A DNA stretch of 64,000 nt, taken from the human T2T-CHM13v2.0 reference genome, Homo sapiens. The notes below the pieces were generated by a model. That model made no database searches and was not told where the DNA came from. It saw only the letters and a list, made by a program, of their open reading frames with translations. The translations under genes and the position numbers were made by a program. Shown here piece by piece: positions 9,340 to 59,451 of this stretch; within the stretch, counting starts at the first letter, position 1, and each line of letters begins with the position of its first letter. The stretch lies in NCBI RefSeq assembly GCF_009914755.1, contig NC_060925.1. One strand, written 5' to 3'.

Positions 9340-9540
9340 GTGATAAACAAAGGACTCTTTTTCTTGGGATCACTGATAGCCATCAGCAGTACCTACCTAC
9401 TTATACACTACATGTCACCACGATCTTTCCTCCGCTTGAGAAGACCATGGAACTGGATAGCTCACTTCCGGAATACAACATGTTTCCCCGCAAAGGCCGT
9501 GGACTCCCTAGAACAAATTTCCAATCTCATTAGCAGGTGA
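9340..9540 (+). CDS. KMO: KMO last coding exon (exon 15), C-terminal membrane anchor to stop
   Basis: cttacag|GTG; VINKGLFFLGSLIAISSTYLL...EQISNLISR then TGA. Confidence 0.98.
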   Translation: MINKGLFFLGSLIAISSTYLLIHYMSPRSFLRLRRPWNWIAHFRNTTCFPAKAVDSLEQISNLISR

Positions 9541-10091
9541 TAGAAAGGTTTTGTGGTAGCAAATGCATGATTTCTCTGTGACCAAAATTAAGCATGAAAA
9601 AAATGTTTCCATTGCCATATTTGATTCACTAGTGGAAGATAGTGTTCTGCTCATAATTAAACTGAATGTAGAGTATCTCTGTATGTTAATTGCAATTACT
9701 GGTTGGGGGGTGCATTTTAAAAGATGAAACATGCAGCTTCCCTACATTACACACACTCAGGTTGAGTCATTCTAACTATAAAAGTGCAATGACTAAGATC
9801 CTTCACTTCTCTGAAAGTAAGGCCCTAGATGCCTCAGGGAAGACAGTAATCATGCCTTTTCTTTAAAAGACACAATAGGACTCGCAACAGCATTGACTCA
9901 ACACCTAGGACTAAAAATCACAACTTAACTAGCATGTTAACTGCACTTTTCATTACGTGAATGGAACTTACCTAACCACAGGGCTCAGACTTACTAGATA
10001 AAACCAGAAATGGAAATAAGGAATTCAGGGGAGTTCCAGAGACTTACAAAATGAACTCATTTTATTTTCCCACCTTCAAATATAAGTATTA

Positions 10092-10142
10092 TCATCTATC
10101 TGTTTATCGTCTATCTATCTATCATCTATCTATCTATCTATC

Positions 10143-10184
<42 letters not shown>

Positions 10185-10204
10185 ATCTATCTATCTATCT
10201 CTAT
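10092..10204. repeat. (TCTA)n tetranucleotide microsatellite
   Basis: Direct reading; sits at the tail of the adjacent antisense Alu. Confidence 0.97.
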
Positions 10205-10476
<272 letters not shown>

Positions 10477-10542
10477 AGAGTTACCCTCTAAAGATAAGAA
10501 AAAGGCTATTAATATCATACTAAGTGAAGGACAGGAAAGGGT

Positions 10543-10670
10543 TTTATTCATAAATTAAATGTCTACATGTGCCAGAATGGAAAGGAAACAAGGGGAGACA
10601 ACTTTTATAGAAATACAAAGCCATTACTTTATTCAATTTCAGACCCTCAGAAGCAATTTACTAATTTATT
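10543..10670 (-). terminator. OPN3: Candidate OPN3 polyadenylation signals (AATAAA x3 on -)
   Basis: TTTATT on + at 10543, 10628 and 10665, about 1.2 kb past the OPN3 stop. Confidence 0.7.
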
Positions 10671-10924
10671 CTTCGACTACATACTGCAGCAGAACCAGCA
10701 ATACACTTGATTTTTAAAAGCACATTTAGTGAAATGTTTTCTTTGGTTCATCCTTCTTTAACAGGCTGCTGAGTCACTCAGAAATCCTTCAAACATGATT
10801 AATTATGAAGATGAAACACTAGAGTCATATAAGAAATAAAAATTGGGCAATAAAATAAAATGATTCAGTGTTTCTTTTCTATATTGTCAATGAAAACCTT
10901 GAGTTCTAATAATCCATGTTCAGT

Positions 10925-11335
10925 TTGTAGGGAAAGAAAAAATAATTTTTCCTTCTACCCACTTTAGGTTCCTTGGCTGGGGCCCCTATAACAAAAGACA
11001 GATTGACAAGAGAAAAACAAACATAAATTTATTAGCGGGTATATGTAATATATATGTGGGAAATACAGGGGAATGAGCAACTCTCAAAGAGCTGGCGTCT
11101 TAGAACTCCCTGGCTTATATAGCATCGACAAAGAACAGTAAATTTTTAGAGAAACAACAAAACAAAGAAAAAGAGCTTTGAGTCTGTAGGGGCAGCAATT
11201 TGGGGGAAGCAAATATATGGGAGTTTGCCTTGTAGATTCCTCTGGTGCTGGTCTCCAGGCTGACAAGGATTCAAAGTTGTCTCTGAAACTCCTCTTTGTC
11301 ATACTGCACATATAAAACGTCTTTTGTTTCCAACA
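10925..11335 (-). mobile_element. ERV1-class LTR fragment (MER31/MER67-like) in the shared 3'UTR
   Basis: aaaagacagattgacaagagaaaa...tttatt...ggcttatatagcat...tagattcctctggtg pattern; subfamily uncertain. Confidence 0.5.
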
Positions 11336-11828
11336 AGAGGATTTTCTTTTTCATTCTAGAATTATCTCCTTGATAACTTGATCAGATATAGGACATGACA
11401 CTGAATAGAGTCCAACAGTACAAAAAAAATTCAGTATGTTCTAGCTACTTCACACATGTGTACGCGACAGTTATTTTTACAGTAAGGTATTTTCGAGAAA
11501 AATGCATTACGTGTTTTGGAAAATAGAGTAATTTAAAAAATATATTTGAAATGAAAATCTCCAACACATTAGAAGATGATGATGTTAGATGCCCATCGTG
11601 TGCCACAAGTGGTTTTTTCATTATGTAAAGCACCCGTTGAATTAAAAGAATTTGTTTTTGTTCAACCTCTTCCTGAGGCCCAAGAGCATATGGGCAATTC
11701 GGATTTCCTGCTGGACCACAAGGTTCTGTTGATATTACATAGAACGGGTATTCCAGACACTTCTTATGATGAAAGTCCAAAAGTGGCATCCAATTTAAGG
11801 CCCCATCTTTCGTTGCCATTCTTCATTC

Positions 11829-12092
11829 CTACAAAGGACGAACTTGGATTACATCAACTTTGGACCCATTGGTTTTGTCGCTGTCGTCAACTGACAGTGA
11901 TTCATCACTGGTGATGATAAAAATGATGGAAGAAGAGTTGAAAGTCACTTTTTTCTTTGGCCTGTCCCCATCTTTCTGTGACATCACAATGGGTCTGATC
12001 TGCATTTCACTTCCAGCTGCTGGTAGGTCTTTAGCAGGCCTCTGGCACCTCAGCAGTCGGAGGCACAGAAGCTGCAAAAGGGATCTTCGAAA
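11829..12092 (-). CDS. OPN3: OPN3 exon 4 ([10 protein letters not shown]...DVIQVRPL*)
   Basis: ctgcccag|TTT acceptor, TAG stop, 264 nt; helix 8 and Ser-rich tail. Confidence 0.97.
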
Positions 12093-13399
12093 CTGGGCAG
12101 AGAAAAAATAAAGTGGAATATTAAGTAAAAGTTGGGCACTAATCTGGATTAACATTCGAGGAAATCAGTTGAGCTGAATTTAAGTTGTTTTTTGTTTGTT
12201 AGCAGGTGTGGATGTGGGGTTATGTGGTCATGCTCAGATCTACCTAAATCACCCCAGAGCTTTATGTCTTTTATTCATTCTAATTCTTATTAACCGGAAT
12301 ATGTAGGACCATTTCAATACCTTGTAATCCTCCAAGCTTCAATCTGCACACACTTTCTATGAGGGCAGGTACAACTATTAAGAGATTTTGAACATTAAGT
12401 TAGTCCACAAATATTCAGTGGGCATCTACTAGGTGACAGCCACTGTGCTATAATTAGAGACTTTTTACTATAAGCATCAAAAACAGATAAGGCTCTTCCT
12501 GGCAGAGTTTACAGCCTGGTGTACTTGCTAATGTCTCTTTAATTAGGTGAAGAATTTTTTTTTTCTATCGAAATTACTAATCAGTTGGGGAAAAAAATAC
12601 TATAGCAGACAGCACTAATGTCATCAACAAACATTGTTCTTCTCCGTGTCCTGGGTACAACATCCAATAATATTTCTTGGCCTCCTTTCCGCTTCTCCTC
12701 TCTGCTGTTCCTCTCTACAAGAACCTGGGGGGCCAACGCCTAAAGATCATAATATCACACAATGGAAGGAACCTAGATTCCTAAATGACTGCATAGGACA
12801 GATCCCATCTCCTCCACCCAATACATTATTAGACTGAACTGTGACCTGAAATGAGCAATAAACTCTGTATTAATTCACTGAAATGTTGGGGTTGCTTGTT
12901 ATAGTAGTCGGTCCATCATGACCAGTAAAACATAAATCAAAAGTTAATGTAATTGTTATCCCATTATTTAGAGCGAAATAAATGTTGAATATATGGACTT
13001 TCTCAGATTAGGAAATACCAATTAAAAATATAATAAATAGCTACATTGATTTCTGTCTTTTTTGTTTGTTTTTTGTTTTGTTTTGTTTTACAGCAAACAC
13101 TGCCTGATAATGTCTTGAGCTCCAATCTTATGCAAGTTAGCATTCAGTTTATACTCACATTTAAAAATATTTATTTTTTCTATCTGATTCAAAAATTTAA
13201 AAAATAAAAATATTTGTTTGAGACTTTATTCACTAAACCATTGTTTGGTTAAGTGTTAAAGATACATTACTGTAAAGGTTAAATAGAGTATGTATGCCAA
13301 AAAACGTTTTTCCATATAAATGGTAAGCTCTTTGAGGACAAGGACCGTTGTTTTTATTTATTTGTTTTTGTTTGTATCTTTTAGACTTCCTGTTTAAAG

Positions 13400-21653: not shown

Positions 21654-21973
21654 CATTCGAATGGAATATAGAATATGGCCATAGCAATGGGCTATGACAC
21701 CCAGGGGCACCACCAGGCAGCCAAGAAATAAGAAAAGCACAAAGGAGGAATCGTTGGCATCCTTGGATTTCCAGTCCACAGTGCAGCCTAGTCCGTGTAC
21801 GTCCAGGATGTACCTGTTCCATCCCAGGAGAGGTGCTCCTGCCCACGCCAGTGAGTAGAGCCAGATGTAGGTAATGGCCCTCCAGGCCCAGGAAAAATTG
21901 ATCACTCTGGCATGGACCACGCGAATGTAACGTTCATAGGCCAGCACGGTTAGGGTGGCAATGGAAACAATCC
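21654..21973 (-). CDS. OPN3: OPN3 exon 2 (ERY motif, TM4, ECL2, TM5)
   Basis: cttgcag|GG, ATG|gtgagt, 320 nt; LAYERY and PLLGWNRY..D...GCTVDW opsin motifs. Confidence 0.98.
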
Positions 21974-43487: not shown

Positions 43488-46355
43488 CCTTAATGGGAGA
43501 AAATTAGCAAAATTATTTAGATGGAACCTCTTATATCTAAATGTGTACTATTTTTAAGTAGCTTTATTGACTCATATAGGCTTACCCTAAAACTAATGAT
43601 CTGTACTAATAATACAAGAAGCCAGGACTATGATTGCGATATATTTTACCAGAGATGGGTCCTAGTGGTCCTCTGTTCCTCAGGTTGGAACCTAGAACAG
43701 TGTGAAGGCAAGAGGATGACATGGAAGAAAAGAGCCACTGGAAACTGCTAGCTGGTCTTTCAATTAGCAAATCGTTGCGGGGGGGTACCTGTGAAATGTA
43801 AGCAATTCCAGGGAATGCAGAGGTACCATACACATAGTCTTTGTTTGAAAGGAGATTACAATCTCCTGACAAACTATTTCCAGTGCAATTCTCATCTTTT
43901 GCTTTTTACTTTTAGTATCTGGTTGGTACTTATGTTTCAACAGCAGGGGTCATTACCAATGTTATGTATTTATAAAATGAGAACAGAACAATGTACAGCT
44001 CATTTCTCCATAATACTTCACTTAAATCATTTTAGGAAATTAACTGTATTATTAATTGCCTAAAAACAAGACTCCAAGCACCTCCTCAGCCATACATTCC
44101 CCCAAATTTTTCCTTTATAGCTGGTAAAATACTGCAATGGTTACACAAGCTTTAACTGTAAACTTAACTTACAAATATAGTAAAATTAACTTATAGTAAT
44201 GATAAAAAATAAAGTTTCCCCATACTGGGTAATATTTACTTTTATGTCAGAGATGAATACGGAACAAGTAAGAGTCTCAAATGAGCAGCAATAGAGAACT
44301 CAAGGGCTTTAATTATATGATGTGTAATAAAAAGAAATGGCATAAAACACACTGTACTAGTATCCTCAAGGATTAAACTATAAAATGCCTAAATATGTAT
44401 CTCATTCTGACTGAATTATAATCAGGTATTCATCTTCCTGCTACACTTTGTCAACCCTGCACCTCTGAATCCAGTCATTCCTCTGATGTGTATGCCTTAA
44501 TATTAAATAGTTGTCCAGAGTGTATTAGAATTAAATATATATTTAGCAACAAGCAAATGCCAAGAATCATAGGACATCAGCAGGGACCAATGAAGGTATT
44601 ATATATAAAGATTTTAAGCTCGACATATCAGAATAAAGAGATCGTTTTTCTGATTTCAGGAGTGAACTTAACTCCCTTCTCTTTCAATCGGAGTTGGCCC
44701 ATTTTATTATAATTATAAAAACTGTAATTTATAGGATTATTTCGCTATTTGTTGAAAAGCCAATCTAAAGTTCCAGAAGCCACACTTTTTAAATAGTGCT
44801 TTATGTGTTACATATTCTTACATGTAATAAATCACTCTTGAGATGCAAGCAAAGCGAAACAGTAGCATTTCATTTCTCATTAATGGGTCTCAATACAAAG
44901 TAGGAGAGTCCAGGCAAGTCACTTAACTCCTCCAGGTTTTATCTACAAAGAAACTGGTATAAATACCTGCCCTTTCTTACCTTACACAGTTGTCCTGAGG
45001 ATCACATAAGAAAATGTAGTTGTCAAGAGAAAAGTATTCCTACAAGTGCTGGAGCAGAACTGTTGTCATATATTTTTGTTATAGCCAAATTCTTTCAGGT
45101 GAATCACTCAGCTTTTGTACTGTTCGTGCCTTACAGAAAGCTGGAAGTACTGTGCCCCCTGCTGTTGAAATGTGAATACATTTGGTTGCTGGTTAAAAGG
45201 AAATGAACTACACTACAAATACCTCTTTATAATGAAGGTAAAAATACTAAAATAAAAATCTGAAAATTTTCAGAGGAAGCAGCCACCTTTATGCAACAGG
45301 AGCATGACTTTCACTTGATCCATCAAGATGAAGGCAAATAAAATTAATCTTAATCAGAATTTCTTGGTATTGAAACTTTATGATCTAATTTCTTTATACT
45401 TCCTCTCCCTAAGCCCTTGATGTCCTGGGCTTCTAGACCCAATCCCCTAGAGCTCCTCTTGGCTCCTTCCCCAGGCAAAAGAAAAAGTTTCTGATTAATG
45501 TGAAAAACTTAACTCACTGAATGTCATCCGAAATAGACTTCGGAGAGTGTTAAACGATTCGGCTTTTAACCTTTAAGCCACCTGTTTTCAACTGTGTAGT
45601 GAGTTTTGGCACCTTTTAAAAGGGATGCCGTGCACAAGGCAGAGACTTCTGTTTTGTTTTTTCTTTTGCCAGGAAACAGGAAGTGCTAGTTACAGTGGGG
45701 AGTGAGACGGGTAAAAAATGTCTTAAATGCTCATTAAGGTAAAAGGTACCTTACCTTAAGGAAAACATTCCAACAGAATGTTTGTCAGGTACAGAGCACT
45801 TATTTTTGTATCTCTAATTTCCCAGAATAATGCCAATTCATAACCCACAGTAGGTGTTCAATGGATGCTTATTAAATTAAATCACCTTGATTTGGATCTC
45901 TCACGCTGACTGGAAGAAAGGGTCTGTCGCATCCTCAGTCCCCCAAGATCTGGCCTTCGCACAGGTCTCTCTGCAAACCAGGTTCGGTCACATCTATGAA
46001 TCCAACTTTCATCTCCACGGTTTTTAAGATTCCCAAGTGACATGTTTGCATTTAGGGGCATACTTTAATTAGTATATGACGTCTTCATGCTGATGTCCTA
46101 GAATGTATTACTAATATTTCTATTACTATTCCTTAATGGTGATCAACTAAGAAAAAATAAATTATGAAGTCCATCTTGACCAAGAATTCCTCCCCACCAA
46201 GATTTGTAAAACTTTCTGCCACACATATCTGAAGATGATCTTTTTTGACTTTAACACCTAGAAATGTATATTTTAATTTAAAATAGAATTTTAGAAACTT
46301 CTAAGAAATCAGTAATTTTCTCACCAGTTCAGTAAACCACTTTACCAATTAATCT

Positions 46356-46368
46356 TTTATTTTTTATT
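46356..46368 (-). terminator. CHML: Tandem AATAAA, candidate distal CHML polyadenylation signal (about 4.9-kb 3'UTR)
   Basis: TTTATT on + at 46356 and 46363; consistent with a recalled long CHML 3'UTR. Confidence 0.55.
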
Positions 46369-49300
46369 GCATACATCAATATTTAACAGAAGAAAAATAA
46401 AGAACCCCTAATGTTAAACTGAATTACATGTTATCTTCTGATTCTTTTCAATGTAGACCTAAATTTTCACATGTATCAGTAAACACAATTTATGTTCTTA
46501 TTAACATTTTTGAATCTCACTTTTTTGCATACAATTTGACATATATCAATATTATTGAATGGCTATATAACATTCTGTGATAGCACTAGCAATACACCAA
46601 AATTTACTTAACCATTTCCAATCGTTGGGCTTTTTTCCCCCTTAAAGTTATCTGAGTGGAACTGCTAGAAAACTTTGTACAAATAGCTTTTCTTTCTTTT
46701 AAATATTTTCCTGGGCATATGCCACTCAAAGTGAGTATGTCAAAAGATCAGTTATAAAGCCCTTTTTATAGTCTTCTACACAGTTCTCTTAAAAGGCTAC
46801 TAATACACAATGCTGCTGCTATAAGGACACATGCAATTAAAACAGTTTTGCTAATACAATAGCATGAACTAAGTCAAAGTTGCATTTTTAATATTAGGAA
46901 ATTTGAATACCATTCAAATTGATTTTTTATATCATTTATACACGATCGCTTTATAAATTTGCCTAAGAGTACAAACCCTTATGGATATGCATATAGTTTT
47001 ACAAAAACTGAGTGCATCCATGTGTAATGCAAATAGCTTCTTTTAAATTCCATCTTGTTTTGTCTTTTTCCTATTTACTACACATTTAAAACTTTTTCTC
47101 TTAGTTGATCTACCTTGCCAATTGCCATGAAGTTCCTTTATACCACTATTGGTGTGAGACTTGTAGTATTTTTCTTTTTATACTTAACATTTTAATTCAT
47201 TTGGAATATCACATGTAAAGTGGATCTAATCTTTCCACACTGACATCTAGCTAGTCTTTCCACCAGCAGTTATTAATATTTCTTTCTTTCCATTGGCTTA
47301 TTAATTTCAGTTAAACTTTCTACTTGGCACCACAGAATATTCAGAAAGGTTGCTTAATAGCATGTTTTAAGGATTTGGAGAGCAAGGCTCCCATTTTTTC
47401 CCCCTAAATTAAAAAAACTTACATCTTTGCTTGCTTTCCTAAATAATTTATTACAATTATGCCATATTCCACACAGCAACCAGTTGGAATGTTAAATGGA
47501 ACTGTAGTAAATTTCATACTAATGTCACATATTGGCATTTCTTTGGATGTAGCTTTATATTTTAAAACACATTATCTAACTTAATCCCCACAATAATTCT
47601 GTGAAGTATTTCTCTTCTGTAGATGGTGAAATAGATACTAGGAGTGACTTTCCCAAGAGTATACAACTGGTAAGTAGTGAAATGAGAACTGTAATTCTGG
47701 TTTTCAAAAAAACTCCCCATCTCCCCATGTACTACTTTTCCACTACACTGGCATGGCTCCCATGGGAGTTTGTTCATGTTTAAAAATATAGCTCTTTAAA
47801 CTTGCTTCTATTTAGGCATCTTTCTTAATTTATCTCTATGTAGTTATATAACTTTCTTTAAAAGTCTCATATATATTAATAACCAAACACACTTTTTAAA
47901 TTGCAGTTTGTCACTGCTAAGATGTAGAAATGAGATTTTTAAAAATTGTGTATCCTGCAACTTCTTGAATTAGTCTTTGTTAGTACATTTTTATACTATA
48001 AGTTTTAGCAGTTGTAAAGCCATGTTAATAGAAAATATTTATGCTACTTTCCTTATCTTCCTCATTTTGTGAATGCTGGCTTTTATTGCAATGACAGGTC
48101 TCTTTAACCATATATAAAAATAGTGCCAACACTGTTTACTTTCCACTTGAGAAATGTTTATGTTTTCCCAGTAGGAATAATGGTAGTTCTTGGTTTAAGT
48201 ACTTAACAGACTCCGAGAAGTCTATTAAATAATTGCCAGAGAAATAATTAAATCAAGGGTGAATGATGAATTTTTGAAAAGTTATCTGTAATTAATACTT
48301 TGGATTTTACTATTTGTTCTTTTGATGCTGATTTAATGGCTGTTCTGCTTAACACCAGCCTTATAATCCTGAGTGATAGTAAATTATTTGTTGCTGTATT
48401 GTTTGTCAATATTTTATTTTGCATTTTGCATCTGTTGAGAATAAAATCCTTCTAAAAATGTCTTTTAGTACTGAGAACATGTCTGCCTCAAAAGACAATT
48501 TGAAGCATACTGTCCTTCATGATACATGGATAGACATTATTTAAACATTTGAAAAAGTTCACCAGTAAGTCCATTAGGGTCAAAGTCCAACCTGTCAGAA
48601 AATTATACTGGGTTACAATATCCCCTAAATTTTTAAATGCTTTTTATTGGTATAACTTCTCATTTCCCACTTATTTTGTATTAAGAAATATATTCATTTT
48701 CTTCATTTCTAAATCAACCTTTATTTTCGACTAATTTTTCCTATTTCCATTATATTCGGCTATACCATCTTTTGCAACTTCTGATTGTTCCTTTTCTCAA
48801 TTTCTTATGAATAATCTGTGATACTGAAAATCTTTTCGGTAGATCTGGAATACCTTCACCTTCATTTTATTTATCATCTTATGTATTTCTCATTTTAATT
48901 ACTATTTTATAGGTCTATTTCAAGTATTTCAGTTGTTCTGTTAGATTTAAACTTTAGGATAAAGTTTAAATATGACTTTTACTATATTTTTAAAAGTCAA
49001 TACAATCCATGACTTTGCTACTTTAAGTAAGTTGTCAATTACTTAAATCTGTCTAGTCTCATTTTCCTCACATATAGAGGAGCAAAAATTAGTGTATTCC
49101 GAACAAATTTTGGCCTGATAATATTTTTTGTAACACAATCTTCAGATCATGAGATGTGTTACTGAAGAACATTTTGTTAAAATTTAGCCAAATTCTGCTT
49201 CGAGATCCATGCTCTAAAATATGTTTGTTTAGTTCATCTTATCTTCACATTTCTCTGATTCAATAAGCTGCAGGACCAGTGTGTGCTTTTTACCCCCGGC

Positions 49301-49484
49301 AATGCTAGACTAATTTTCGTGGGCACTTTCTCTTTCTCCTGCAGCGCCTACACTCTCTAACAGTGAATGTTAGTAGAAAGATCAAAGGTTTTAGAATCAC
49401 AAAAGGCTGGGTCCCCATGTTGGCTCTTCCACATACCAGATTCTGAGCAAATTACTAATAATTCTCTTATTTCTTCTTTGAAGG

Positions 49485-49840
49485 TGATATGGTTTGGCTG
49501 TGTTCCCACTCAAATCTCATCTTGAATTGTAGCTCCTATAATTCCCACGTGTTGTGGGAGGAACCTGGTGGGAGATAACTGAATCATGGAGTTGTTTCCC
49601 CCATACTGTTCTCATGGTAGTAAATAAGTCTCACGATATCTGATGGTTTTAAAAGGGTTTCCCTTTTCACTTAGTTCTCATTCTCTCTTGTCCACCGCCA
49701 TGTAAGACGTGCCTTTCACCTTCCACCATGATTGTGAGGCCTCCCCAGCCACATGGAACTGTGAGTCCATTAAACCTTTTTCTTTACAAATTACCATCTC
49801 AGGTGTGTCTTTATCAACAGCATGAGAACACACTAATACA
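49485..49840 (+). mobile_element. THE1 (THE1B/C-like) solo LTR
   Basis: tgatatggtttggctgtgt...ctaataca; 5-bp TSD gaagg/gaggg. Confidence 0.93.
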
Positions 49841-51269
49841 GAGGGTACATGCGAATTTGCCTCACAGGATTGTTGAGAAACTGTCATGAGAAAGCATAAT
49901 ACTAGGTACCAAACACATGATAAATACTATTTCAGAGCAAAAACTGTCACAGGGATCATCATACTCTGACTGAAGAATGGAAACTGGACTAGAGGAAAAG
50001 CAAGTTCATGTCTTCTGACAGCTCCACAGGTTTTCACCATTAGAGTACTACCAGTTTTATGACGTTGGGTGGCTCTGGGAGAAAAAAAGTTTCTATACTC
50101 TGGATAACAGCTAAGAGGCAAGAGAGATTACAGAAAATTGTTACTTCACAATTTGTTAAGTGGGACACAACCGAAAGGGCATGGTAAATCCTCCTTTGAT
50201 TCATTCCTATCAGTTATGTTATAGTGATATTAATTAAAGTGGTAGAGCCAACAAGGTGGTATGTTTCATTCTCACTGAAAAACCTTGGGTAATCTATTTA
50301 TAGAGGGTTTTATAAGTATCTGTAATCTCAGGTTAAAAAGGCCTCACTCTGTTTCTCCTTAGGAATTCCTAAGAATTCCTCCTTAGGAATTTCAGAACAG
50401 CCCTTCTGAAGTATCTTCTCCTGGGGCACTTCATTTTTCCTTTTGGTCTAAGTTACTTGTTGGAAGCTATTTTAAGTGCCAGGGCAGGGCTCTGCAGAAA
50501 TTTTCTGAAGTATTAAATAAGAATAAATCTTATCTTTCAAATTTCCTTTGCAATCAACCTCCCCAAAATGAGCTTTACAACCACTAATTGAACTCCAATT
50601 CTTTTTGTAAATTAGAATACTGTGGTGGCATCATTGCCTCATCAGTTACAAGGGTCAAGTGAGTATTATAAACTTCAGACCTTCACAGTGCATAAAGGAT
50701 CATGCAAAGCTAATCTTTAAACGATTATAGACAAATGTATTTTATTATCATATTGGCATTTGTATTAGTTGCTATTCCTACCACCATGTCTATACATTTA
50801 TATTATATGCAAAAGATCCACATAATTTACCATTTGTGTATGTTTCACTATTCGAACAGGCCGCAGCAACTGTAACAGCTGCAAAAGTAATTAAAATATT
50901 ACTTGGGTATTACTAATTGTTCTGTAGACAAAGATAAAATCTGAAGATCATTAGCAAATACATTACCTTTAAGCTGAGTTGCTAATATGGAACCCTTACA
51001 TATATACCCAATACTAAAATAAAGCTAACTCTGTTTTAAGATTCTGGGTCATATAGCCCATTCTAAACAAAATGTTCAATAATCAATAAATCACTCATTG
51101 ATAGGTTAACAAAGATATTCAATGAATGTCTGAGAGTTAAAGACAACATCTGCATAGCATTCATCATATATAACCACTTCTAATTACTCATATGGGAAAC
51201 TGTCCTTTAAATGAGAAAATTCTGATGCCATGAAGGAGGTCCAAAACAGCATTTCGAGATTGCTCTTTT

Positions 51270-53240
51270 CTAATTTTGAAGGTGCTTCTCTGGGCTTTCT
51301 AGGTTTTTGCTTTCCTCAGAGGATTCTAGTTTGGCCATTACTACATTATTGGTTCCAGGAGCCTCTGGCTGCTTATCATCACCATCAAAGATAATGTCTT
51401 CTGGATTTGGAGGTGGAGGGCAGAATTCTTCAGTTGGAAAGATCTCCTGGAAAAGTGTTTCAGCTTGCTTGACAGCATGCTCATTTCCCAGGCCACAGTC
51501 AGGCCCAGAGCAGACATAAACATTGGAAGGCAAGCCATTATACGAGCTTCTGCTGATTCCCGAGGAATCTCTCATATTAAAATAAAGAGCCCACAAGAGT
51601 CTTGGCTTTGTAAGTTCTTCCTCGTTTATTTCTGTTTCAGTATACGGAGTGAATAATTTCTTCACCACTGATTCTAAGTCTTCTCTTGCTGTTTTAGAAG
51701 ATGAACATGTCAAATGTACCAGATAGGTGTCCTTCATGCATGTCATGGTTGAAGAACATAATTCTGTGACCCGTACAGCACAAGCTCCTGGCTCTGCTGG
51801 AGGAACTATCAGAATGGAAGTCTGCTGATCTAAATCTGTCTTTAGTATAGACTGATCTGTAATGAGTACTGCCCTAGAGATCTGCTTATACTGCACATTT
51901 GAGCATGTTTCCTCAGAAAGGTAACTGTCTTCCACAATAAAATATTTAGCATTTATTCTTTGACCAAAGTGATCTATAATTGCTTTACATCGTCCAGATT
52001 CTTTGTCGACTACAAAGCATTGTACTTTATGACGAAGACAATAGATTCCACCAAAAACTGCACACATCCTACAGAAACCCTGGGGAATTTCTCCTTGGCC
52101 ATACAAGGGAAATAAAAAGGGGGTGTTGCCAAACCGTCCGAGACACTGAAGGAAGTTTTTAGTTGCGTTAAGACCATCTATTGTAGTGCAAGATGATTCT
52201 GATGTCATTGCAATTGAGTGCAGTACAAAATGTTGAAGGTTGGGAGTTAGTTTTTTAGTTTTTAAGTATTCTGAAAATGAACACTGCCTGAAAGCTTGGT
52301 ATTCATCAGGATGTTGTTCATACTCTAAACAAAATGTGAGAAATTTCATTAGCATCCTCTTTTCAACCATGGTGAGTTCCTTGCTATTAAAGACATCTGC
52401 TCTGGAACAAGGAACTTGTTCTACCTTTCCTTCCCGAAATGCAAGAATCCTAGTGACATTTTTAAATTCTACATAACGACTAACATCTGATTTGATTAAA
52501 AGATCAATTAGCAATCCTTGAGAATACAGCAGTTTTGACACCAAATCAATATTAAACCTCCTGCCTTCTTTAACTATTTGAGAGTAAGTAATCCTATTTC
52601 TAATTGGTTCATCGGCCTTATCTTCTACTGTAGATTTGCTTTCATCTTTATCTCCATCTTTATCTGAAACTGTGTGCATACAAGTTTTATCTCCACAATA
52701 CTTTTCCTTCTCCACTGATTCCTCTACATCAGTTACTTCTAGTGAAATCTCTGTATCACTTTTCTGAGTGTGTTTTGCAGGCATTTCGTCGCTATTAAAA
52801 TACGATAACTGGCTTTCTTCAGGTAATGCAGAATCCAGAACTTCAGTGAAGGTATTAGACACCCCCAAAGAAGGATTTTTCTGCAGAGCACCAATCTCTT
52901 CAACGTTGTCCTCCATATCCTGACTGGCGTAGCAAAAAGCTTCTGTGTGTTGAATAGTTTCATCCTTCTTGCGAAGAGTGATGGCTTCTTCTGTTTCATG
53001 GATCAGGTCCTGCCATACAACAGTACTTTCTTCCCCAATGTCATTGTTTTGCTGATACTCCTTCAACCAGGATAGCAATCCTGAAAAGCTGAAACTAGCC
53101 CAGTTTCCTCCATAGTAGCTTCTTGAATCAATATGCAGAACCCTCTGACCACTTCTTGAACATGCAGCTGCAAGGATGGATTCGGGCAAACCTGTCCCTA
53201 TTATAACCACATCAAACTCTGTGGGAAGATTGTCCGCCAT
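51270..53240 (-). CDS. CHML: CHML / Rab escort protein 2, intronless retrogene nested in OPN3 intron 1, 656 aa
   Basis: Uninterrupted ORF with GDI/REP motifs [51 protein letters not shown]; Kozak aaaATGG. Confidence 0.99.
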
Positions 53241-53546
53241 TTTAGGAAGTAACAGCGTCTGGTGACAACTGCTGATGAAAGAAATGAGGTGTGATTATGC
53301 TGTAATAAAATCTGTCCTTCTGATGTTCCAGTTATCCCAGAAGCACTGAAGTTGCAGGTCCTAGCTGTTTAACGGTTACCCTTTTAAAATATTTTTTTTC
53401 TTATAAGTCAGTAGCATAAAAACATGAGCAAGTACATCTAATCACATCTGAGAATACTAAAATGGATGTGTGGTTTCATTTCTGCATTTCATCTTAGCAG
53501 TAAATGTCAAAATGCATCATATATGCATTTGTGACTGGAACTCTTC

Positions 53547-53572
53547 TCTGAAAGAAGAAAATTCAAGAAAGA
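53547..53572 (-). promoter_or_regulatory. CHML: Strong 3' splice acceptor 307 nt upstream of the CHML ATG
   Basis: - strand tctttcttgaattttcttctttcag|AGAAGAG; first exonic base 53547. Confidence 0.75.
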
Positions 53573-56500
53573 ATACATTGTAAACAATATAAGAGAAAAA
53601 TAATTTCATGCAACAATGACAATCCATTGGAGTGTGACATCTTATTTGGACATAAACCTCTACTAAAGCATGTCTTAAATGCTTTCTCACATATTTTCTA
53701 ATTTCTTGAAAATGGACAATAGAGATATAACAGCCCTCCCAAGAATCAGGCAACATAGTAATAGAGAATGAACATAATGTTCCACAAAAATAAAGAAGAA
53801 ATAACATAATACAATTCTCTAACTTTAGCTTTTAAGAAAACTATCATGTGAATAAATCTATACACAGCTGTGAGCTTAGACTAAAAGGAACGCATGGCTC
53901 CACTGTTTATAGAAACAGATTATAAACTATGTGCATACTGCCATGATTCAAAATATTTCTGTGGCCATTACAGTCTATGTGTGATTCCAGAACAGCTGAA
54001 TATAAGACCTTTCCATGCCACAACCACCCTTAGGATCTCATGGTAGCAACATGAGACTATTTCTACTCAATTACTAGTCAGATTATTACAAAAGGATTAA
54101 TTCAGTAAAACAACTGGCCATTTAAAAATATTTAGGCTCATAATAGCCCTGAGGAGGAAAATGTATTAAAAATATTATATGAATGTACACATGCATATAA
54201 GTAATAAAGGAAAAAAGTGTGTAAGTGTAAGTAAAAAAGGAAAACTTCTGATTTCATATTAAAATATCTTAACATAAATAATACCTACTTCTAACATTTG
54301 AATACAGTGATGTTTCCATTTCGCCACTGTCTCTGCAACCCTGAATCTCTGCATCCCAAGCAAAAGGTCTATCTAAACATCCTCTGCCAAGACTAACACT
54401 GTTTGTTCTTATTTTTGAAGGGGAAGTTTAAAAAAAAAAAAATAATAAGGTTCTCCTGTTAACTTTGAGCATAATGCTGGTTACATTCCATGTGCGGAAG
54501 ACATCTGTGTGATGCCCTGTGTGGCCAGAGGTAGAAAGGCCAAGGTGCTGAAGAGCATACTCACCTGAAAGTCTTTAGGCTAAAGCAACAATACTGCTAA
54601 ACTTTCTAATATTCATCATTGCACAGTTTTGAGCTCTGGTTTTCACTACTGTTAAACCTACTGAAATATAAATCAGTACAAGCTGTACCTGTCTAGCCCA
54701 AGATGACTAATAATCCTGGATACTGGAAAAACAAGCCATTCAATTGGAACTTAGATTAAATTGCATAGGGCACACACCTTTAGTTTAACTAAAATGGCAA
54801 TCCTAACAGTCCTGTCTAGTCAAAGCCTCTGTCTCAAAAATATCAAGGATTCCACTCATTTTTGGCATTCCCTAAGAAGCCAGGAACTAAGTACAGAATG
54901 CAGCAGTTGCCTGGCCCACTCAAGTATAAATATAAGTATGTCTGAATTACTTATTCTGCTTCTTCCAGCAGGGTGTGAAGATGGAGACTGAATCTATGAT
55001 GGTATCTGAAGAGGTGTAACCATAGTACATGCTGCTTCTTGGCTTAGAAAGACAGGGCTCAGGGTAGGAGTAGGAGCAGAAGACACAATCAATAAGCGCT
55101 AAGATCAGTCACGTTCTAACCTACAGATATCAAAGGGGTCATCAAAATGCAAAGCAAGTAGGATGGCCTTACAGAGCATTAAGCTGAATTACCCAATAAT
55201 AGAGATGAGAGAACTGATAGCTGGAGAGATTAAGTGACTTGAGAAAGCCCGCACAATGCATGAGTCGCAGGATAAGGAACAGGATCCACTCTTGTGCCAT
55301 CAGACCAATGGTCTTTCCAACAGATAGGGCAAGCCTCTCCAAAAGCCTCTGCATCAAGAAGCTACTTCCCTCATTTTTAACTTCCTCCCCTTCAATACTC
55401 CACTGTTAGGTAGTTCTTGCTCAGGGATAACTCAGGAAGTGCCCTCCTTTTCTTCATCCTTAACCTGGATCTAGAAGCACAAACTCCGGAATTTACTCCA
55501 GGCAAAGAAATCATCTTCGCTAAAAACTTTTTAAACTCTATAGTAACTTCACTACTAACTTGCCCCCCCGGGGTTAAGTCTCGGAATCTCTTATCTCAGG
55601 GTTTCCACCTCTACATTAAAAACAGGGAGAAAGTCATGGTTGAAAGCACTAAATGCCCTGAAAAATAGGGCAGCCCTCAGGCAAAAATCTAAGTGAACTT
55701 AGAAAATCACTGGGCTGGGACCCTAGGAGGGATGGTGAAGAAGAAAAACAGGAAGGGAGAAGTGACTAGGAGACACAGGAGGGTGGGATCAGCAGAGGAA
55801 AGAGGTGAGGAAGAGGGTGGATGACAGCTAGCACTTATAAAGAACTCAGTACACCCTTGTGTTCAAACTCCCGGGCACGAAAACAGAATTTTCCAGCACA
55901 GAAAAGGCACTTCAAGGAAAAAAGAACTTTGATGTCTGTGAACAAACACCTGTTGACTACCCTGGAGAACACTACTGATGATACTTTAGGCTTGGGCTTG
56001 AATAACCTTCTTAGCATTGCCGAAGAAACTGCCTGATAGGTATTTTACAATTAATATAAGGAGTGTAATCCCATAGTCGTCCATACCACAGCCTACATAC
56101 ACTTGCAGTCCCCTCCCTAAATTTCAAATGTTTGTTCAAATGAAATTATCAGATTAAAGCTTATGAGGGGCGGGGAGGAAAATATTATAACCTCTGAAGC
56201 AATCAAATAAAATCTATTTTCTTATTTCCTTCAAAACGCCAAAAAATGAATCATTACAAATATAATATTTGGGTTTGTCATAGCATAGAGGTTACTGAAT
56301 AAGAAAATATTTTTGATAATTCTACAAAGATTTTTGTTCTCCCAAACCTACCAAGATTAAAGCAATAAAGTATCAATGGATTTCAGGATTTAAAAAAGGA
56401 ACTTTAAGCCTTGAGAAATACACATTTCTATTTCAAATCTCCCTACAAATGAAATTCCTGAGGCACACAAAAAAATAATTTCCTTTCTACGCTTCCTTCA

Positions 56501-57059
56501 ATGATTTGCTGAGTTGTTGATCATCCTTCAAAACATCATGTCTCAGTGAAACTTAAATCTTCCATAATAAGAGTACTGTCGAAATACATCTTCAACAATG
56601 AAGTTCTACTTTAATGAAATCTACCGATTGCAGAGCTAATTACAGTATTTGTTCACCTGAGATGGTATTGGCTGAGCCATTTGTAATCTCACCCAAGATT
56701 CTGGTGTGCTGGAACCCATCTATAAGACGGAAAATAGTAAAAACAGCTTACAGGGCACATGCCAATTTGCATTCTGAGGACCTGAATGAAACTGTCTCAT
56801 TCCCTAGAAAGCATTCAAAGGTTTACAAGTACTAATGAGAATTTTTTTTTACACATTGTTATTTTGGTTTTCTACTCTCATTTTAGGAAACAAATAGTAG
56901 TACATGAATCTAATCTCATCACTCCCTCCAACTTTCACGAGTTAATCACTTTTTTTCTTGAATCTCTTGACTCTACAGGCCCTCGTCTCTTTCCTCAAAG
57001 TGTAAAAAGCCGTGGTTTCGTGCCTTGTTGAGTGATCTTAGGAGGTAAAAACAAATAAG

Positions 57060-58100
57060 AAAGGAGGCGGGCCGGGGTTTGGGGTCAACGTGGGGGGCAG
57101 ATGAGAGACCACAGGAATGGAGTCCTGGACAGCGTGGGGCGGGAGGGGACGGAGGAAGAGGAAGGCACCCGCCATGCGGCTGGGGTCGGGCAGCGTTGAG
57201 GAGGCGAGCGGGGAGCGGGGCGGTGTAGGGCGGGGGGCGCGGGGCCGAGCGGGAAGCGGTGCGGGGCGGGCTGGGGGGCGGACGCACGGAGCGGGCAGCG
57301 GGGTGGGGAGTGGAAGTTTGCAGAGGGGAGGCTGCCTTCTCCCAGTCCAACTCACCGAAGAGGCTGCCGCTAAACCCGTCCCACACGCAGCCCACGGTGT
57401 CCCACACCCAGCCGTTCCTCAGGCAGGACACGAAGGTAAAGGTGACCCCGAAGAGGGACACCAGCAGGTCGCTGAGGCTGATGTTGACCAGGAGGAGGTG
57501 AGTGGGAGTGCGGAGCCGCTGGAACTTGTAGTAGAGGACGAGCACCAGCAGGTTGTTGCCGACGCCCAGCAGCCCAATGGAGCCCAGCAGCAGCGCCAGG
57601 CGCTCGTAGGTGCCGGGGCTGAAGAGGGGCGCGGGGCTCAGTGTCCCCGCCGGCGCCGGCCCCTCAGCGCCCGCGGCCCCGCCGCCGTCCCAGTAGCCGT
57701 GGCCGCCGCTGCGGTTCCCCGAGTACATGGCCCGGCGCCGGCGCGCCTGGCGGGCGGAGGCGCTCAGCTTGCGGCGGGGCTCGCGGCGCGCTCCGCACTG
57801 GGTGGGGCTGGGGCTCCGCCGCCTGCTCTGGCCATTGTGCACTGAGGGGCCCGCGCTACCGCGCGCCGGGCCCGCCCTCTTCCCGCCCCTTCCGCCCGGC
57901 GCACCCCCGTGGCCCCGCCCCTCCCCGCGGCCTGTCCTCGTCGCTCCGCTGCTCCCGGCGCGTCCTCTTAGCCCCGCCCCCCCGCGGGCGCGTCCTCGCG
58001 GCTAGCTCGCCCCGCCCCCACTGGCTGGGCACCTTCCGCTGGTCGGCGTGGACGCGCGTCGCGGGATAGCCTGGGGGCCAGGGCCGCAGGGTAGCCTCGA
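57060..58100. promoter_or_regulatory. CpG island / TATA-less GC-box promoter of OPN3 (probably shared with CHML)
   Basis: Very high GC and CpG density; multiple CCCGCCC Sp/KLF boxes at 57870-58020. Confidence 0.92.
57356..57728 (-). CDS. OPN3: OPN3 exon 1 coding part (MYSGNRSGG... TM1-TM3)
   Basis: ATG at 57728, TTCG|gtgagt donor, 373 nt; [32 protein letters not shown] motifs. Confidence 0.98.
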
Positions 58101-59451
58101 TGGCTCTTCACACCCCCACCTCCCTGCACCCACCTTGAAAGCTTCGTGTCCACTCACCCATTCATGCACTCACTTATACATTCATTTATTCCTAAGTATT
58201 TATGAGCGCCTGCGCCCACCACGTGCTGGCAAGAATTGGGCTTCTCCCCTTCCTGGGAAGCTGTAATAACCCACAACCAGCCTACGAAGCCCATCCCGCG
58301 TCATACACTCAATGTAAACAAAAGCAAAGAAAACATTGAAGAGCTCGGGGTAGTCTTACCGGAAAACTGAGAAGAAAAACAACAAATTGATAGACAGGTG
58401 CCTGCCTAACTACCTGACTGCTAGAGGACACATGTCCCAGGGCTGATACAAGAGCCTGCCACCCTTGGAGAGTCTGGGATGAAAACTCTCTGAAAATGGC
58501 ATTCCAATGGAACTGACTTTAAGCCCTGGGCTGGACCCCAAGGCCTTCCAATACCGTCCTTCCTGTGCTTGAAAGCGTGGGTAGATCTTTCCGGTCACTG
58601 AGGCCTGCTAAAGTCCTTCACAGGCAGTGAAAGATTCAACCTAAATCTAGCAGGTATAGGAGGCAGGTGCTATATTTAGAACAGCACACATTTCCCATTG
58701 GGCCTCTTCTCCTGTAGTGATGAGAATATAGTACAAGTCAAATATAGGTTGTGAACGTCATCACACTCTGCAAGAGCTGCTTCTGCCTTTGTGGTTGCAC
58801 AATCCCTAAGGAGGCCCTACAAGAAGATCACAGTCCCCAGCCACACCTGCAGCCTGTCCTGGACACTGGTGACGAACACAGGGTTTGTGCAAGCTAAAGA
58901 AACTGCTCTCCATACGGGCGTGCCTCACCTCTGTTTGAAAGATCAGTAGGGAATGACTAGCTTGGATCAATCCACATTCTGAATTCCCTGGAGAGAGGAT
59001 CTAATAGGCTGGCAGCAGCTCTCCACCCTGGTGCACTGAGCAATAGCTAAGGGGCAGTGTGCTCTGCCTTTGACACCTTGATTTTCCTTCAAGGCTTCTG
59101 CTCTGGACTCGCCATCTGTGAGACTTCCTACCCACCCACCCCTTAAAAAACACACACACACTTTTAATTGTTAATTTTAGATTTGTACAACCACTGAACA
59201 AAACATAACTATTTAACAAGTTCTATATGTTTAATGTCGAAAGTGTTTTCTGTGTCTAGTCTACAGTAAGTTCTCAATAAATAGTAATTTGAATGAATGA
59301 ATAAAGAACTCGCTATATTTTTTCCTATTCATTCTTCATTGCTGAGTCATTGCCCTTATAAAGCTCACATTCCAGTCGTGTTGGGAGAACAAACAAAAAT
59401 TAGATAAATACGTAGGGTGTCAGCCACTGACAAATGCCATGAAGAAATAGG

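What the first reader, a model, noticed from the sequence alone, without database searches (positions are those of the whole stretch)
53507..57728. OPN3 exon 1 spliced to the CHML acceptor predicts a bicistronic-like mRNA with a truncated 137-aa opsin ahead of REP2
Seen: I find no CpG island at CHML itself, but there is a strong acceptor at 53547 on the same strand. Joining the OPN3 exon 1 donor (57356, phase 1) gives G|AG AAG AGT TCC AGT CAC AAA TGC ATA TAT GAT GCA TTT TGA, i.e. OPN3 aa 1-124 plus EKSSSHKCIYDAF* (stop 53509-53507). The CHML ATG follows about 266 nt later. The stop is in the terminal exon, so EJC-dependent NMD is not expected. I recall that annotated CHML transcripts share this first exon. 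Inference: CHML acts as an alternative last exon, so one splice/polyA choice toggles full opsin versus REP2 plus a TM1-TM3 opsin fragment that could interact with OPN3 or its partner GPCRs.
Basis: partly seen in the sequence, partly recalled or inferred. Interest (0 to 1): 0.72.

Follow-up and report, generated by a model that had tools for sequence, protein, structure and literature searches.

The report
OPN3 first exon spliced onto CHML
The splice that joins the first exon of the opsin gene OPN3 to the nested gene CHML is real, conserved in placental mammals and already annotated and published, and the short opsin piece it predicts has only two membrane helices and is probably an upstream reading frame, not a working receptor.

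Summary
Observation confirmed to the base. On the minus strand, OPN3 exon 1 (ATG 57728, last base 57356, phase 1) joined to the acceptor at 53547 reads OPN3 1-124 plus a 13-residue tail. The stop is at 53509-53507 and the CHML ATG lies 266 nt further on.

It is not new. The hub's RefSeq table lists this junction as the selected CHML transcript and lists the same exon under OPN3. ESTs were reported in 2011. GENCODE annotators called mouse Chml_Opn3 a "bicistronic locus" in 2018. Of 100 short OPN3-like database proteins, 16 carry this tail, all from placental mammals.

- The product has TM1 and TM2 only, not TM1-TM3, and lacks ERY, K299 and NPxxY.
- An independent intronic CHML start exists: RefSeq 53668, and 17 of 17 mouse 5'RACE clones. 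A poly(A) knock-in at the Opn3 ATG leaves Chml expressed.
- Tail conservation runs past the stop, so it need not be coding constraint.

Best reading: a retrogene uses its host's promoter through a conserved alternative last exon, and the opsin ORF acts as a long upstream ORF.

The parts
59340..59350 (-). NRF2 antioxidant response element published as lying in the 'CHML promoter'; it sits about 1.5 kb upstream of OPN3 exon 1
   Evidence: The motif from PMC9019883 is found once in the window. The paper's ChIP primer is at 59376-59395.
56901..58400 (.). The only CpG island of the window, covering the shared OPN3/CHML promoter and exon 1
   Evidence: 500-bp windows with GC >= 0.55 and CpG o/e >= 0.65.
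57356..57843 (-). Shared first exon (488 nt, 72% GC): 115-nt 5'UTR plus OPN3 codons 1-124 and 1 nt
   Evidence: Hub RefSeq table.
57764..57835 (-). 23-codon upstream ORF in the shared 5'UTR; its ATG is in the context ACAATGG, 8 nt from the annotated 5' end
57350..57355 (-). Donor GTGAGT of exon 1, used for both the CHML exon and OPN3 exon 2
53548..57355 (-). 3,808-nt intron removed in the chimeric CHML mRNA; the competing OPN3 intron 1 is 35,382 nt
53668..53668 (-). 5' end of the RefSeq single-exon CHML transcript. It is not preceded by AG, so it is a start site. It lies 121 nt upstream of the acceptor; the mouse 5'RACE start lies 112 bp upstream.
   Evidence: Hub table; sequence; mouse RACE.
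53548..53572 (-). Polypyrimidine tract and AG of the CHML acceptor
53507..53547 (-). Tail of the 137-codon ORF (EKSSSHKCIYDAF plus TGA)
   Evidence: The tail is present in 16 of 100 database hits.
53241..53506 (-). 266-nt spacer between the two ORFs, holding 7 ATGs that open ORFs of 1-13 codons. The last 136 nt are ATG-free.
53271..53273 (-). Second acceptor (…tttcatcag|C). Exon 1 joined here gives a 147-codon ORF that overlaps the CHML ATG out of frame, with its stop ending at 53201.
   Evidence: Hub table. The same kind of tail occurs in 4 primate database proteins.
51270..53240 (-). CHML (REP2) coding sequence, 656 aa, uninterrupted
   Evidence: Pfam GDI (E 2.5e-58) and RAE1_2_domI_C (E 5.4e-56).
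46328..51269 (-). CHML 3'UTR (4,942 nt) with AATAAA at 46368 and 46361 before the annotated end
21654..21973 (-). OPN3 exon 2, the competing distal acceptor. It encodes most of TM3 and the ERY motif.
   Evidence: Hub table.

Best explanation
CHML is a retrogene sitting in intron 1 of OPN3 in the same orientation. It has no CpG island of its own. Part of its expression comes from the OPN3 CpG-island promoter: exon 1 is spliced to an acceptor 307 nt upstream of the CHML ATG, and the 7.2-kb CHML exon then acts as a proximal alternative last exon with its own poly(A) signals. Each transcript from the OPN3 promoter must therefore either stop at CHML (3.8-kb intron) or skip it and reach OPN3 exon 2 (35.4-kb intron). 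All of this is shown. Inferred: on the chimeric mRNA the opsin ATG opens a 137-codon ORF that works mainly as a long upstream ORF and holds down REP2 translation. REP2 would then be made by ribosomes that leak past the opsin ATG (context G at -3, T at +4) or reinitiate, and by mRNAs that start at the intronic site 53668. The peptide is a two-helix hairpin without the retinal lysine or any G-protein-coupling motif. It is most likely an unstable by-product, not a receptor or a regulator.
For: 1. The junction and ORFs are exact.
2. The hub's RefSeq table gives exon 1 plus 46328-53547 as the selected CHML transcript and lists the same exon under OPN3.
3. Human ESTs DA323545, DN996875 and AA745052 were described as exonization in OPN3 at CHML (passages). 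'OPN3;CHML' is in a table of RNA-seq fusion transcripts (passage).
4. [quoted passage not shown] In mouse NM_021350 the coding region starts at nt 791; in the human chimeric mRNA it starts at nt 796.
5. Of 100 database proteins, 16 carry the tail. They come from dog, sloth, tamandua, rhino, bats, rodents, pika, colugo, pangolin and a monkey. The first 7 tail residues are invariant in 15 of 16.
6. The NRF2 element reported to drive CHML mRNA and Rep2 protein lies upstream of OPN3 exon 1, not in the intron.
7. Retrocopies expressed as chimeric transcripts with upstream host exons are a described class: 13 human and 14 mouse cases.
8. The fragment has only 2 hydrophobic spans and matches 7tm_1 at positions 2-60 of 260. 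ERY (138), K299 and NPVIY (305) all lie beyond it.
9. Conservation continues past the stop. The guinea-pig protein reads through, and its next 5 residues equal the human read-through (5 of 5). The stop is lost in 2 of 16.
Against: 1. In mouse cortex and cerebellum 17 of 17 5'RACE clones start in the intron, and Chml in situ signal persists after a poly(A) knock-in at the Opn3 ATG. In that tissue the chimeric mRNA is therefore not needed for Chml.
2. No call here measures how much of human CHML mRNA is chimeric.
3. No call shows that any ribosome reaches the CHML ATG on the chimeric mRNA. Twelve ATGs precede it, and reinitiation after 137 codons is generally held to be inefficient (my knowledge).
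4. The intronic-start leader is no better, with 15 ATGs, so neither form explains REP2 output well.
5. The tail is as conserved as the opsin part: 9-12 of 13 residues against 0.78-0.93 identity. That fits a coding role as well as a splicing role.
6. Most of the 16 database proteins are automatic gene models, which may copy each other's annotation.
7. An NRF2 element 6 kb away could also act on the intronic start.
Confidence: 0.55

Rival explanations
1. The chimeric exon 1-CHML RNAs are non-productive for REP2. They would be a side effect of a nested gene's acceptor and poly(A) sites lying in the path of OPN3 transcription (transcriptional interference). REP2 would come essentially from mRNAs that start at the intronic promoter near 53668.
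For: In mouse, 17 of 17 5'RACE clones start in the intron, and Chml persists after the poly(A) knock-in. Kaer et al. classed the human ESTs as interference-induced exonization. Twelve upstream ATGs, including a 137-codon ORF, precede the CHML ATG in the chimeric leader. The ATG density of the leader resembles neighbouring intron: 10 observed against 6.4 +/- 1.9 in shuffles, and 30 against 19.2 in the intron control.
Against: The acceptor and the first 21 nt after it are kept across three placental superorders. RefSeq chose the chimeric form as the selected transcript (hub table). The published NRF2 element for CHML lies upstream of exon 1. The intronic-start leader carries 15 ATGs. There is no CpG island and no clear core-promoter motif at 53668.
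Confidence: 0.2
2. CHML-bound transcripts start inside the broad CpG-island promoter, downstream of the opsin ATG. They would then lack that ATG altogether, and the 137-codon ORF would not exist on most CHML mRNAs.
For: Exon 1 holds no other ATG after 57728 in any frame. Such an mRNA spliced at 53271 would have no upstream ATG at all. The NRF2 paper's numbering (-1622 to -1612) places its 'TSS' at about 57728. CpG-island promoters usually have dispersed start sites (my knowledge).
Against: The absence of further ATGs in exon 1 is not unusual (shuffle mean 0.79, P = 0.37). The RefSeq 5' end is 57843 for both genes (hub table). No start-site data were available to me.
Confidence: 0.15
3. One reading: a true bicistronic mRNA whose first product, a conserved 137-aa mini-opsin, is made and acts on OPN3 or partner receptors, for example by retaining them in the ER.
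For: The ORF is kept at 13 tail residues in 13 of 16 mammalian models, and the tail is 9-12 of 13 identical to human. The stop is in the last exon, so EJC-dependent decay is not expected. Highly truncated GPCR variants, including one 2TM form, are on record and often act as dominant negatives through ER retention (abstract and passages). Another truncated OPN3 mRNA (143 aa) is about as abundant as full-length mRNA in skin cells.
Against: Only TM1-TM2 remain. The stop is lost in 2 of 16, and conservation runs on past it. The tail length equals chance. The 7.2-kb region after the stop could still expose the mRNA to EJC-independent decay (my knowledge). No paper in the library treats this peptide. 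The authors call their comparable fragment 'presumably nonfunctional'.
Confidence: 0.1

Closest known systems
Retrocopies that 'piggyback' on a host gene's promoter through chimeric transcripts with upstream host exons (Carelli et al. 2016, e.g. Taf9 in Ak6)
   Same: The coding sequence is intronless (656 aa in one exon), lies in a host intron in the same orientation, and is spliced to the host's first exon. It has no CpG island of its own.
   Different: Here the captured host exon is coding. It brings the host's start codon and 124 codons ahead of the retrogene ORF. CHML is not named in that paper's main text (0 occurrences), and its supplement could not be read.
GENCODE 'bicistronic locus Chml_Opn3' in mouse (Lilue et al. 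2018 preprint)
   Same: [quoted passage not shown]
   Different: This is an annotation statement only. I saw no test of translation of either ORF from the shared mRNA in the passage shown. The later mouse 5'RACE disagrees for brain.
Nested-gene-induced exonization and cryptic polyadenylation (Kaer et al. 2011)
   Same: The same human ESTs are used, and the same idea applies: the nested gene diverts host transcripts.
   Different: That paper treats it as interference with the host. The conservation found here suggests a maintained splice.
Highly truncated GPCR splice variants (Wise 2012 review)
   Same: Alternative splicing yields fewer than 7 TM helices, and a 2TM sst5 variant is listed.
   Different: No evidence here that the OPN3 fragment is made, retained in the ER, or binds the full-length receptor.
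OPN3 e1-e3-e4 variant, 143 aa (Haltaufderhyde et al. 2015)
   Same: It also ends shortly after exon 1, so it is nearly the same N-terminal fragment.
   Different: It arises by exon-2 skipping with a frameshift, not through the CHML exon. Its stop is not in a CHML-bearing mRNA.

Membership tests
Functional opsin / rhodopsin-family 7TM receptor (for the 137-aa product) | Seven transmembrane helices | tested here: not met
   There are two hydrophobic spans, 44-66 and 77-103. Past residue 100 the maximum KD19 is 0.57, against 1.74 for TM3 of full OPN3. Pfam 7tm_1 is matched at profile positions 2-60 of 260.
Functional opsin / rhodopsin-family 7TM receptor (for the 137-aa product) | Retinal-binding lysine in TM7 (K299 in OPN3), plus the E/DRY and NPxxY motifs | tested here: not met
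   ERY is at 138, K at 299 and NPVIY at 305 of the full protein, all beyond residue 124.
Retrogene expressed through a host-gene chimeric transcript | Uninterrupted coding sequence related to a multi-exon parent gene | tested here: met
   The ORF is 656 aa in one exon and matches Pfam GDI and RAE1/2. Descent from CHM is taken from the literature, not tested here.
Retrogene expressed through a host-gene chimeric transcript | Lies in a host intron in the same orientation and is spliced to upstream host exon(s) | tested here: met
   Hub RefSeq table; splice signals; ESTs and RNA-seq; 16 + 4 mammalian models.
Alternative last exon / intronic polyadenylation isoform of OPN3 | A terminal exon inside an intron with its own acceptor and poly(A) signal, mutually exclusive with the downstream exons | tested here: met
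   The acceptor is at 53547. AATAAA lies at 46368 and 46361, before the end at 46328. The exon is listed under OPN3 in the hub table.
Bicistronic mRNA | Two separate ORFs for distinct proteins on one mature mRNA | tested here: met
   A 137-codon ORF is followed, 266 nt later, by a 656-codon ORF.
Bicistronic mRNA | Both ORFs translated from the same mRNA molecules | not testable with these tools
   This needs Ribo-seq, reporters or proteomics. No paper found or 48 addresses it.
Dominant-negative truncated GPCR variant | Binds the full-length receptor and retains it in the ER | not tested
   No binding claim is made, so no complex prediction was run.

The most novel reading that the evidence does not exclude
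The chimeric OPN3-exon-1/CHML mRNA is a conserved, truly bicistronic placental mRNA. It would yield a two-helix 'mini-opsin' with a conserved Cys-containing tail that modulates trafficking of OPN3 or partner receptors. It would also yield REP2 by regulated reinitiation through the cluster of short upstream ORFs, so that opsin output, mini-opsin output and Rab prenylation capacity are coupled at one splice choice.
Probability: 0.08. Interest if true: 0.6.

Novelty: already known. Interest (0 to 1): 0.25.

Why it matters
Three practical points follow from the architecture.

1. Any Opn3 allele that alters exon 1, the promoter or intron 1 may also change Chml. The 2025 mouse study checked exactly this for its knock-in and found Chml spared in brain.

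2. Work on the 'CHML promoter' is in fact work on the shared OPN3 promoter. OPN3 and CHML expression data should therefore be read together.

3. REP2 partly substitutes for REP1, whose loss causes choroideremia. Knowing which leader REP2 is translated from, and how strongly the 12-15 upstream ATGs hold it down, would show whether REP2 output could be raised.

The mini-opsin idea would matter only if the peptide is shown to exist.

Tried and rejected
- Kasper et al. 2002, the paper on human OPN3 splice variants, is not held. [quoted passage not shown]
- A search for transcript accession numbers gave nothing useful.
- The uORF/Ribo-seq search returned no paper with CHML among the 20 listed of 4,130. 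The 2026 paper on 14 polycistronic human transcripts mentions neither CHML nor OPN3 in its main text.
- Rfam gave 0 matches at gathering score in 46000-58200, so there is no known structured element or IRES family.
- I tested whether the lack of ATGs in exon 1 after the opsin ATG is special. It is not (0 observed, shuffle mean 0.79, P = 0.37).
- I tested whether the CHML leader is depleted of ATGs, as a scanned leader might be. It is not (10 observed against 6.4 +/- 1.9).
- Protein-level selection on the tail could not be tested. No mammalian DNA other than this window is reachable with these tools, and protein sequences hide synonymous change.
The supplement of Carelli et al. 2016 is not held.
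- No structure or complex prediction was run. The joined human peptide cannot be handed to those tools by reference, and I make no binding claim.
Full report
**1. What is in the sequence**

Everything below is on the minus strand.
- OPN3 exon 1 runs 57843-57356. Its ATG is at 57728, and the exon ends with a single G of codon 125 followed by GTGAGT.
- An acceptor with 17 of 20 pyrimidines at -23..-4 (…ttttcttctttcag|AGAAGAG) opens an exon at 53547. OPN3's own three acceptors score 17-19 of 20 on the same crude count.
- Joining the two gives OPN3 residues 1-124 plus EKSSSHKCIYDAF and TGA at 53509-53507, 137 residues in all.
- The CHML ATG is at 53240 in a good context (AAAATGG), 266 nt after that stop. 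It opens an uninterrupted 656-codon ORF that matches Pfam GDI and RAE1/2.
- The only CpG island of the window is 56901-58400, over exon 1. The CHML side is CpG-poor.
- The stop lies 41 nt past the last junction, in the last exon.

The tail length is not remarkable in itself. With the base composition of this leader a stop is expected every 14.4 codons, and all three frames close within 9-17 codons.

**2. It is already annotated and in print**

- The hub's RefSeq table gives exon 1 plus 46328-53547 as the selected CHML transcript. It lists the exons 46328-53547 and 46328-53271 among OPN3's other transcripts too.
- Kaer et al. 2011 listed three human ESTs as 'exonization in OPN3' at the nested CHML (passages).
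- A 2019 RNA-seq study lists OPN3;CHML among its fusion transcripts (passage).
- Mouse NM_021350 has its coding region starting at nt 791. The human chimeric mRNA has it at nt 796.

**3. The other annotated forms**

- Position 53271 is preceded by …tttcatcag, so it is a second acceptor. Exon 1 joined there gives a 147-codon ORF that runs across the CHML ATG out of frame and stops at 53201. That leader is 519 nt long and has only 2 upstream ATGs.
- Position 53668 is not preceded by AG, so it is a start site inside the intron, 121 nt upstream of the acceptor. Its 428-nt leader has 15 ATGs.
- The selected form has a 795-nt leader with 12 ATGs.

**4. Conservation**

I searched the exon-1 peptide against the large protein collection, restricted to lengths of 68-217 aa. 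That gave 100 hits at E <= 1e-10 among 212 candidates. I classified all 100 by what follows the end of exon 1.

| Class | Hits |
|---|---|
| CHML-acceptor tail | 16 |
| 53271-type tail ending …LMWL | 4 |
| Continue into normal exon 2 | 3 |
| Look like read-through into the intron | 52 |
| Other | 21 |
| Lack the exon-1 end motif | 4 |

- The 16 with the CHML-acceptor tail are named as opsin-3 or opsin-3 isoforms of dog/wolf, sloth, tamandua, snub-nosed monkey, rhinoceros, squirrel, two bats, pocket gopher, guinea pig, colugo, jerboa, pika, wood mouse, pangolin and deer mouse.
- The 4 with the 53271-type tail are all primates.
- The tails are 9-12 of 13 identical to human, and exon 1 is 0.78-0.93 identical.
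- The first seven tail residues are invariant in 15 of 16.
- The 13-residue length is kept in 13 of 16. The stop is lost in squirrel (+4 residues) and guinea pig (+6), and one record ends a residue short.
- The guinea-pig extension after the lost stop equals the human read-through in 5 of 5 residues.

Conservation therefore continues beyond the ORF and is strongest next to the splice site. That is what a constraint on splicing or on the leader would give, but it does not exclude a coding constraint.

One caveat applies. Most of these records are automatic gene models, and they do not show translation.

**5. What the peptide would be**

- Pfam 7tm_1 matches residues 59-116 at profile positions 2-60 of 260.
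- Hydropathy gives two spans, 44-66 and 77-103. TM3 of full OPN3 (118-137) is encoded mostly by exon 2 and is replaced by a polar tail.
- ERY (138), K299 and NPVIY (305) are all absent.

So it is a TM1-TM2 hairpin with a tail of about 35 residues bearing three cysteines. It is not a TM1-TM3 fragment and not a photopigment.

Truncated GPCR variants do exist and often act as ER-retained dominant negatives; one 2TM variant is listed in the review (abstract and passages). A different OPN3 variant that also ends just after exon 1 (143 aa) is about as abundant as full-length mRNA in skin cells, and its authors call it presumably nonfunctional (passages).

**6. How CHML is expressed**

For the shared promoter:
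- RefSeq's choice of selected transcript (hub table).
- The conserved acceptor.
- The location of the published NRF2 element. The NRF2 response element reported as lying in the 'CHML promoter' at -1622 to -1612 occurs once in the window, at 59340-59350, about 1.5 kb upstream of OPN3 exon 1. The paper's ChIP primer lies beside it. That paper reports NRF2-dependent CHML mRNA and Rep2 protein and never mentions OPN3 (0 occurrences).

Against exclusive dependence on the shared promoter:
It holds for mouse brain, and RefSeq's 53668 transcript is the human counterpart.

**7. Mechanism I commit to**

Shown: this is a two-output transcription unit. The proximal CHML exon lies behind a 3,808-nt intron, has its own AATAAA signals at 46368 and 46361, and holds 15 PAS hexamers in all. 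It competes with OPN3 exon 2, which lies 35,382 nt from the donor.

Inferred:
- The proximal acceptor is transcribed long before exon 2, so making full-length OPN3 requires skipping it.
- On the chimeric mRNA the opsin ATG (G at -3, T at +4) captures many ribosomes, and the 137-codon ORF acts as a long upstream ORF.
- REP2 then comes from leaky scanning or reinitiation, from 53271-spliced forms, and from intronic-start mRNAs.

The leader shows no depletion of ATGs: 10 observed against 6.4 +/- 1.9 in shuffles, and the neighbouring intron has 30 against 19.2. It therefore looks like recruited intron, not a tuned leader. No known RNA family is present.

**8. Placement and novelty**

- This is the known class of retrocopies that use a host promoter through chimeric transcripts: 13 human and 14 mouse cases in Carelli et al. 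2016 (passages).
- The unusual feature here is that the captured exon is coding.
- Searches of the held library found no paper that tests translation of the 137-aa ORF or the route by which REP2 is translated from the chimeric mRNA. Supplements and non-open papers, Kasper 2002 among them, were not visible.
- The finding is correct but already known. The open part is quantitative and translational.

Noticed in passing
window 57764-57835 (-): There is a 23-codon upstream ORF in the shared OPN3/CHML 5'UTR. Its ATG has a strong context (ACAATGG) but lies only 8 nt from the annotated 5' end, so its use would depend on the exact start site.
   Followed up: no
window 59340-59350 and 59376-59395 (-): The NRF2 response element and ChIP primer published for the 'CHML promoter' lie upstream of OPN3 exon 1. 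The paper's numbering puts its start site at about 57728, the opsin ATG, and the paper does not mention OPN3.
   Followed up: partly
window 53507-53578 (-): In the intronic-start CHML leader, an ATG at 53578 is in frame with the opsin tail. It gives a 23-codon ORF that ends with the same 13 residues and the same stop, so the conserved tail frame is also open on the non-chimeric mRNA.
   Followed up: no
window 10525-13043: The KMO last exon (9340-13043, +) and the OPN3 last exon (10525-12092, -) overlap tail to tail. This is a known feature of the locus (hub table; cites Halford et al. 2001).
   Followed up: no
proteins P0002 and P0005 (lemurs): Two lemur database models reach the CHML start region through other donor/acceptor combinations. 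One keeps a few residues of intron read-through before the …LMWL tail. Several splice routes therefore seem to lead from exon 1 to just upstream of the CHML ATG in primates.
   Followed up: no
literature: Chml and Opn3 appear together in the female-biased gene lists of mouse pituitary at several ages. This would fit a shared promoter in that tissue, unlike the brain 5'RACE result.
   Followed up: no
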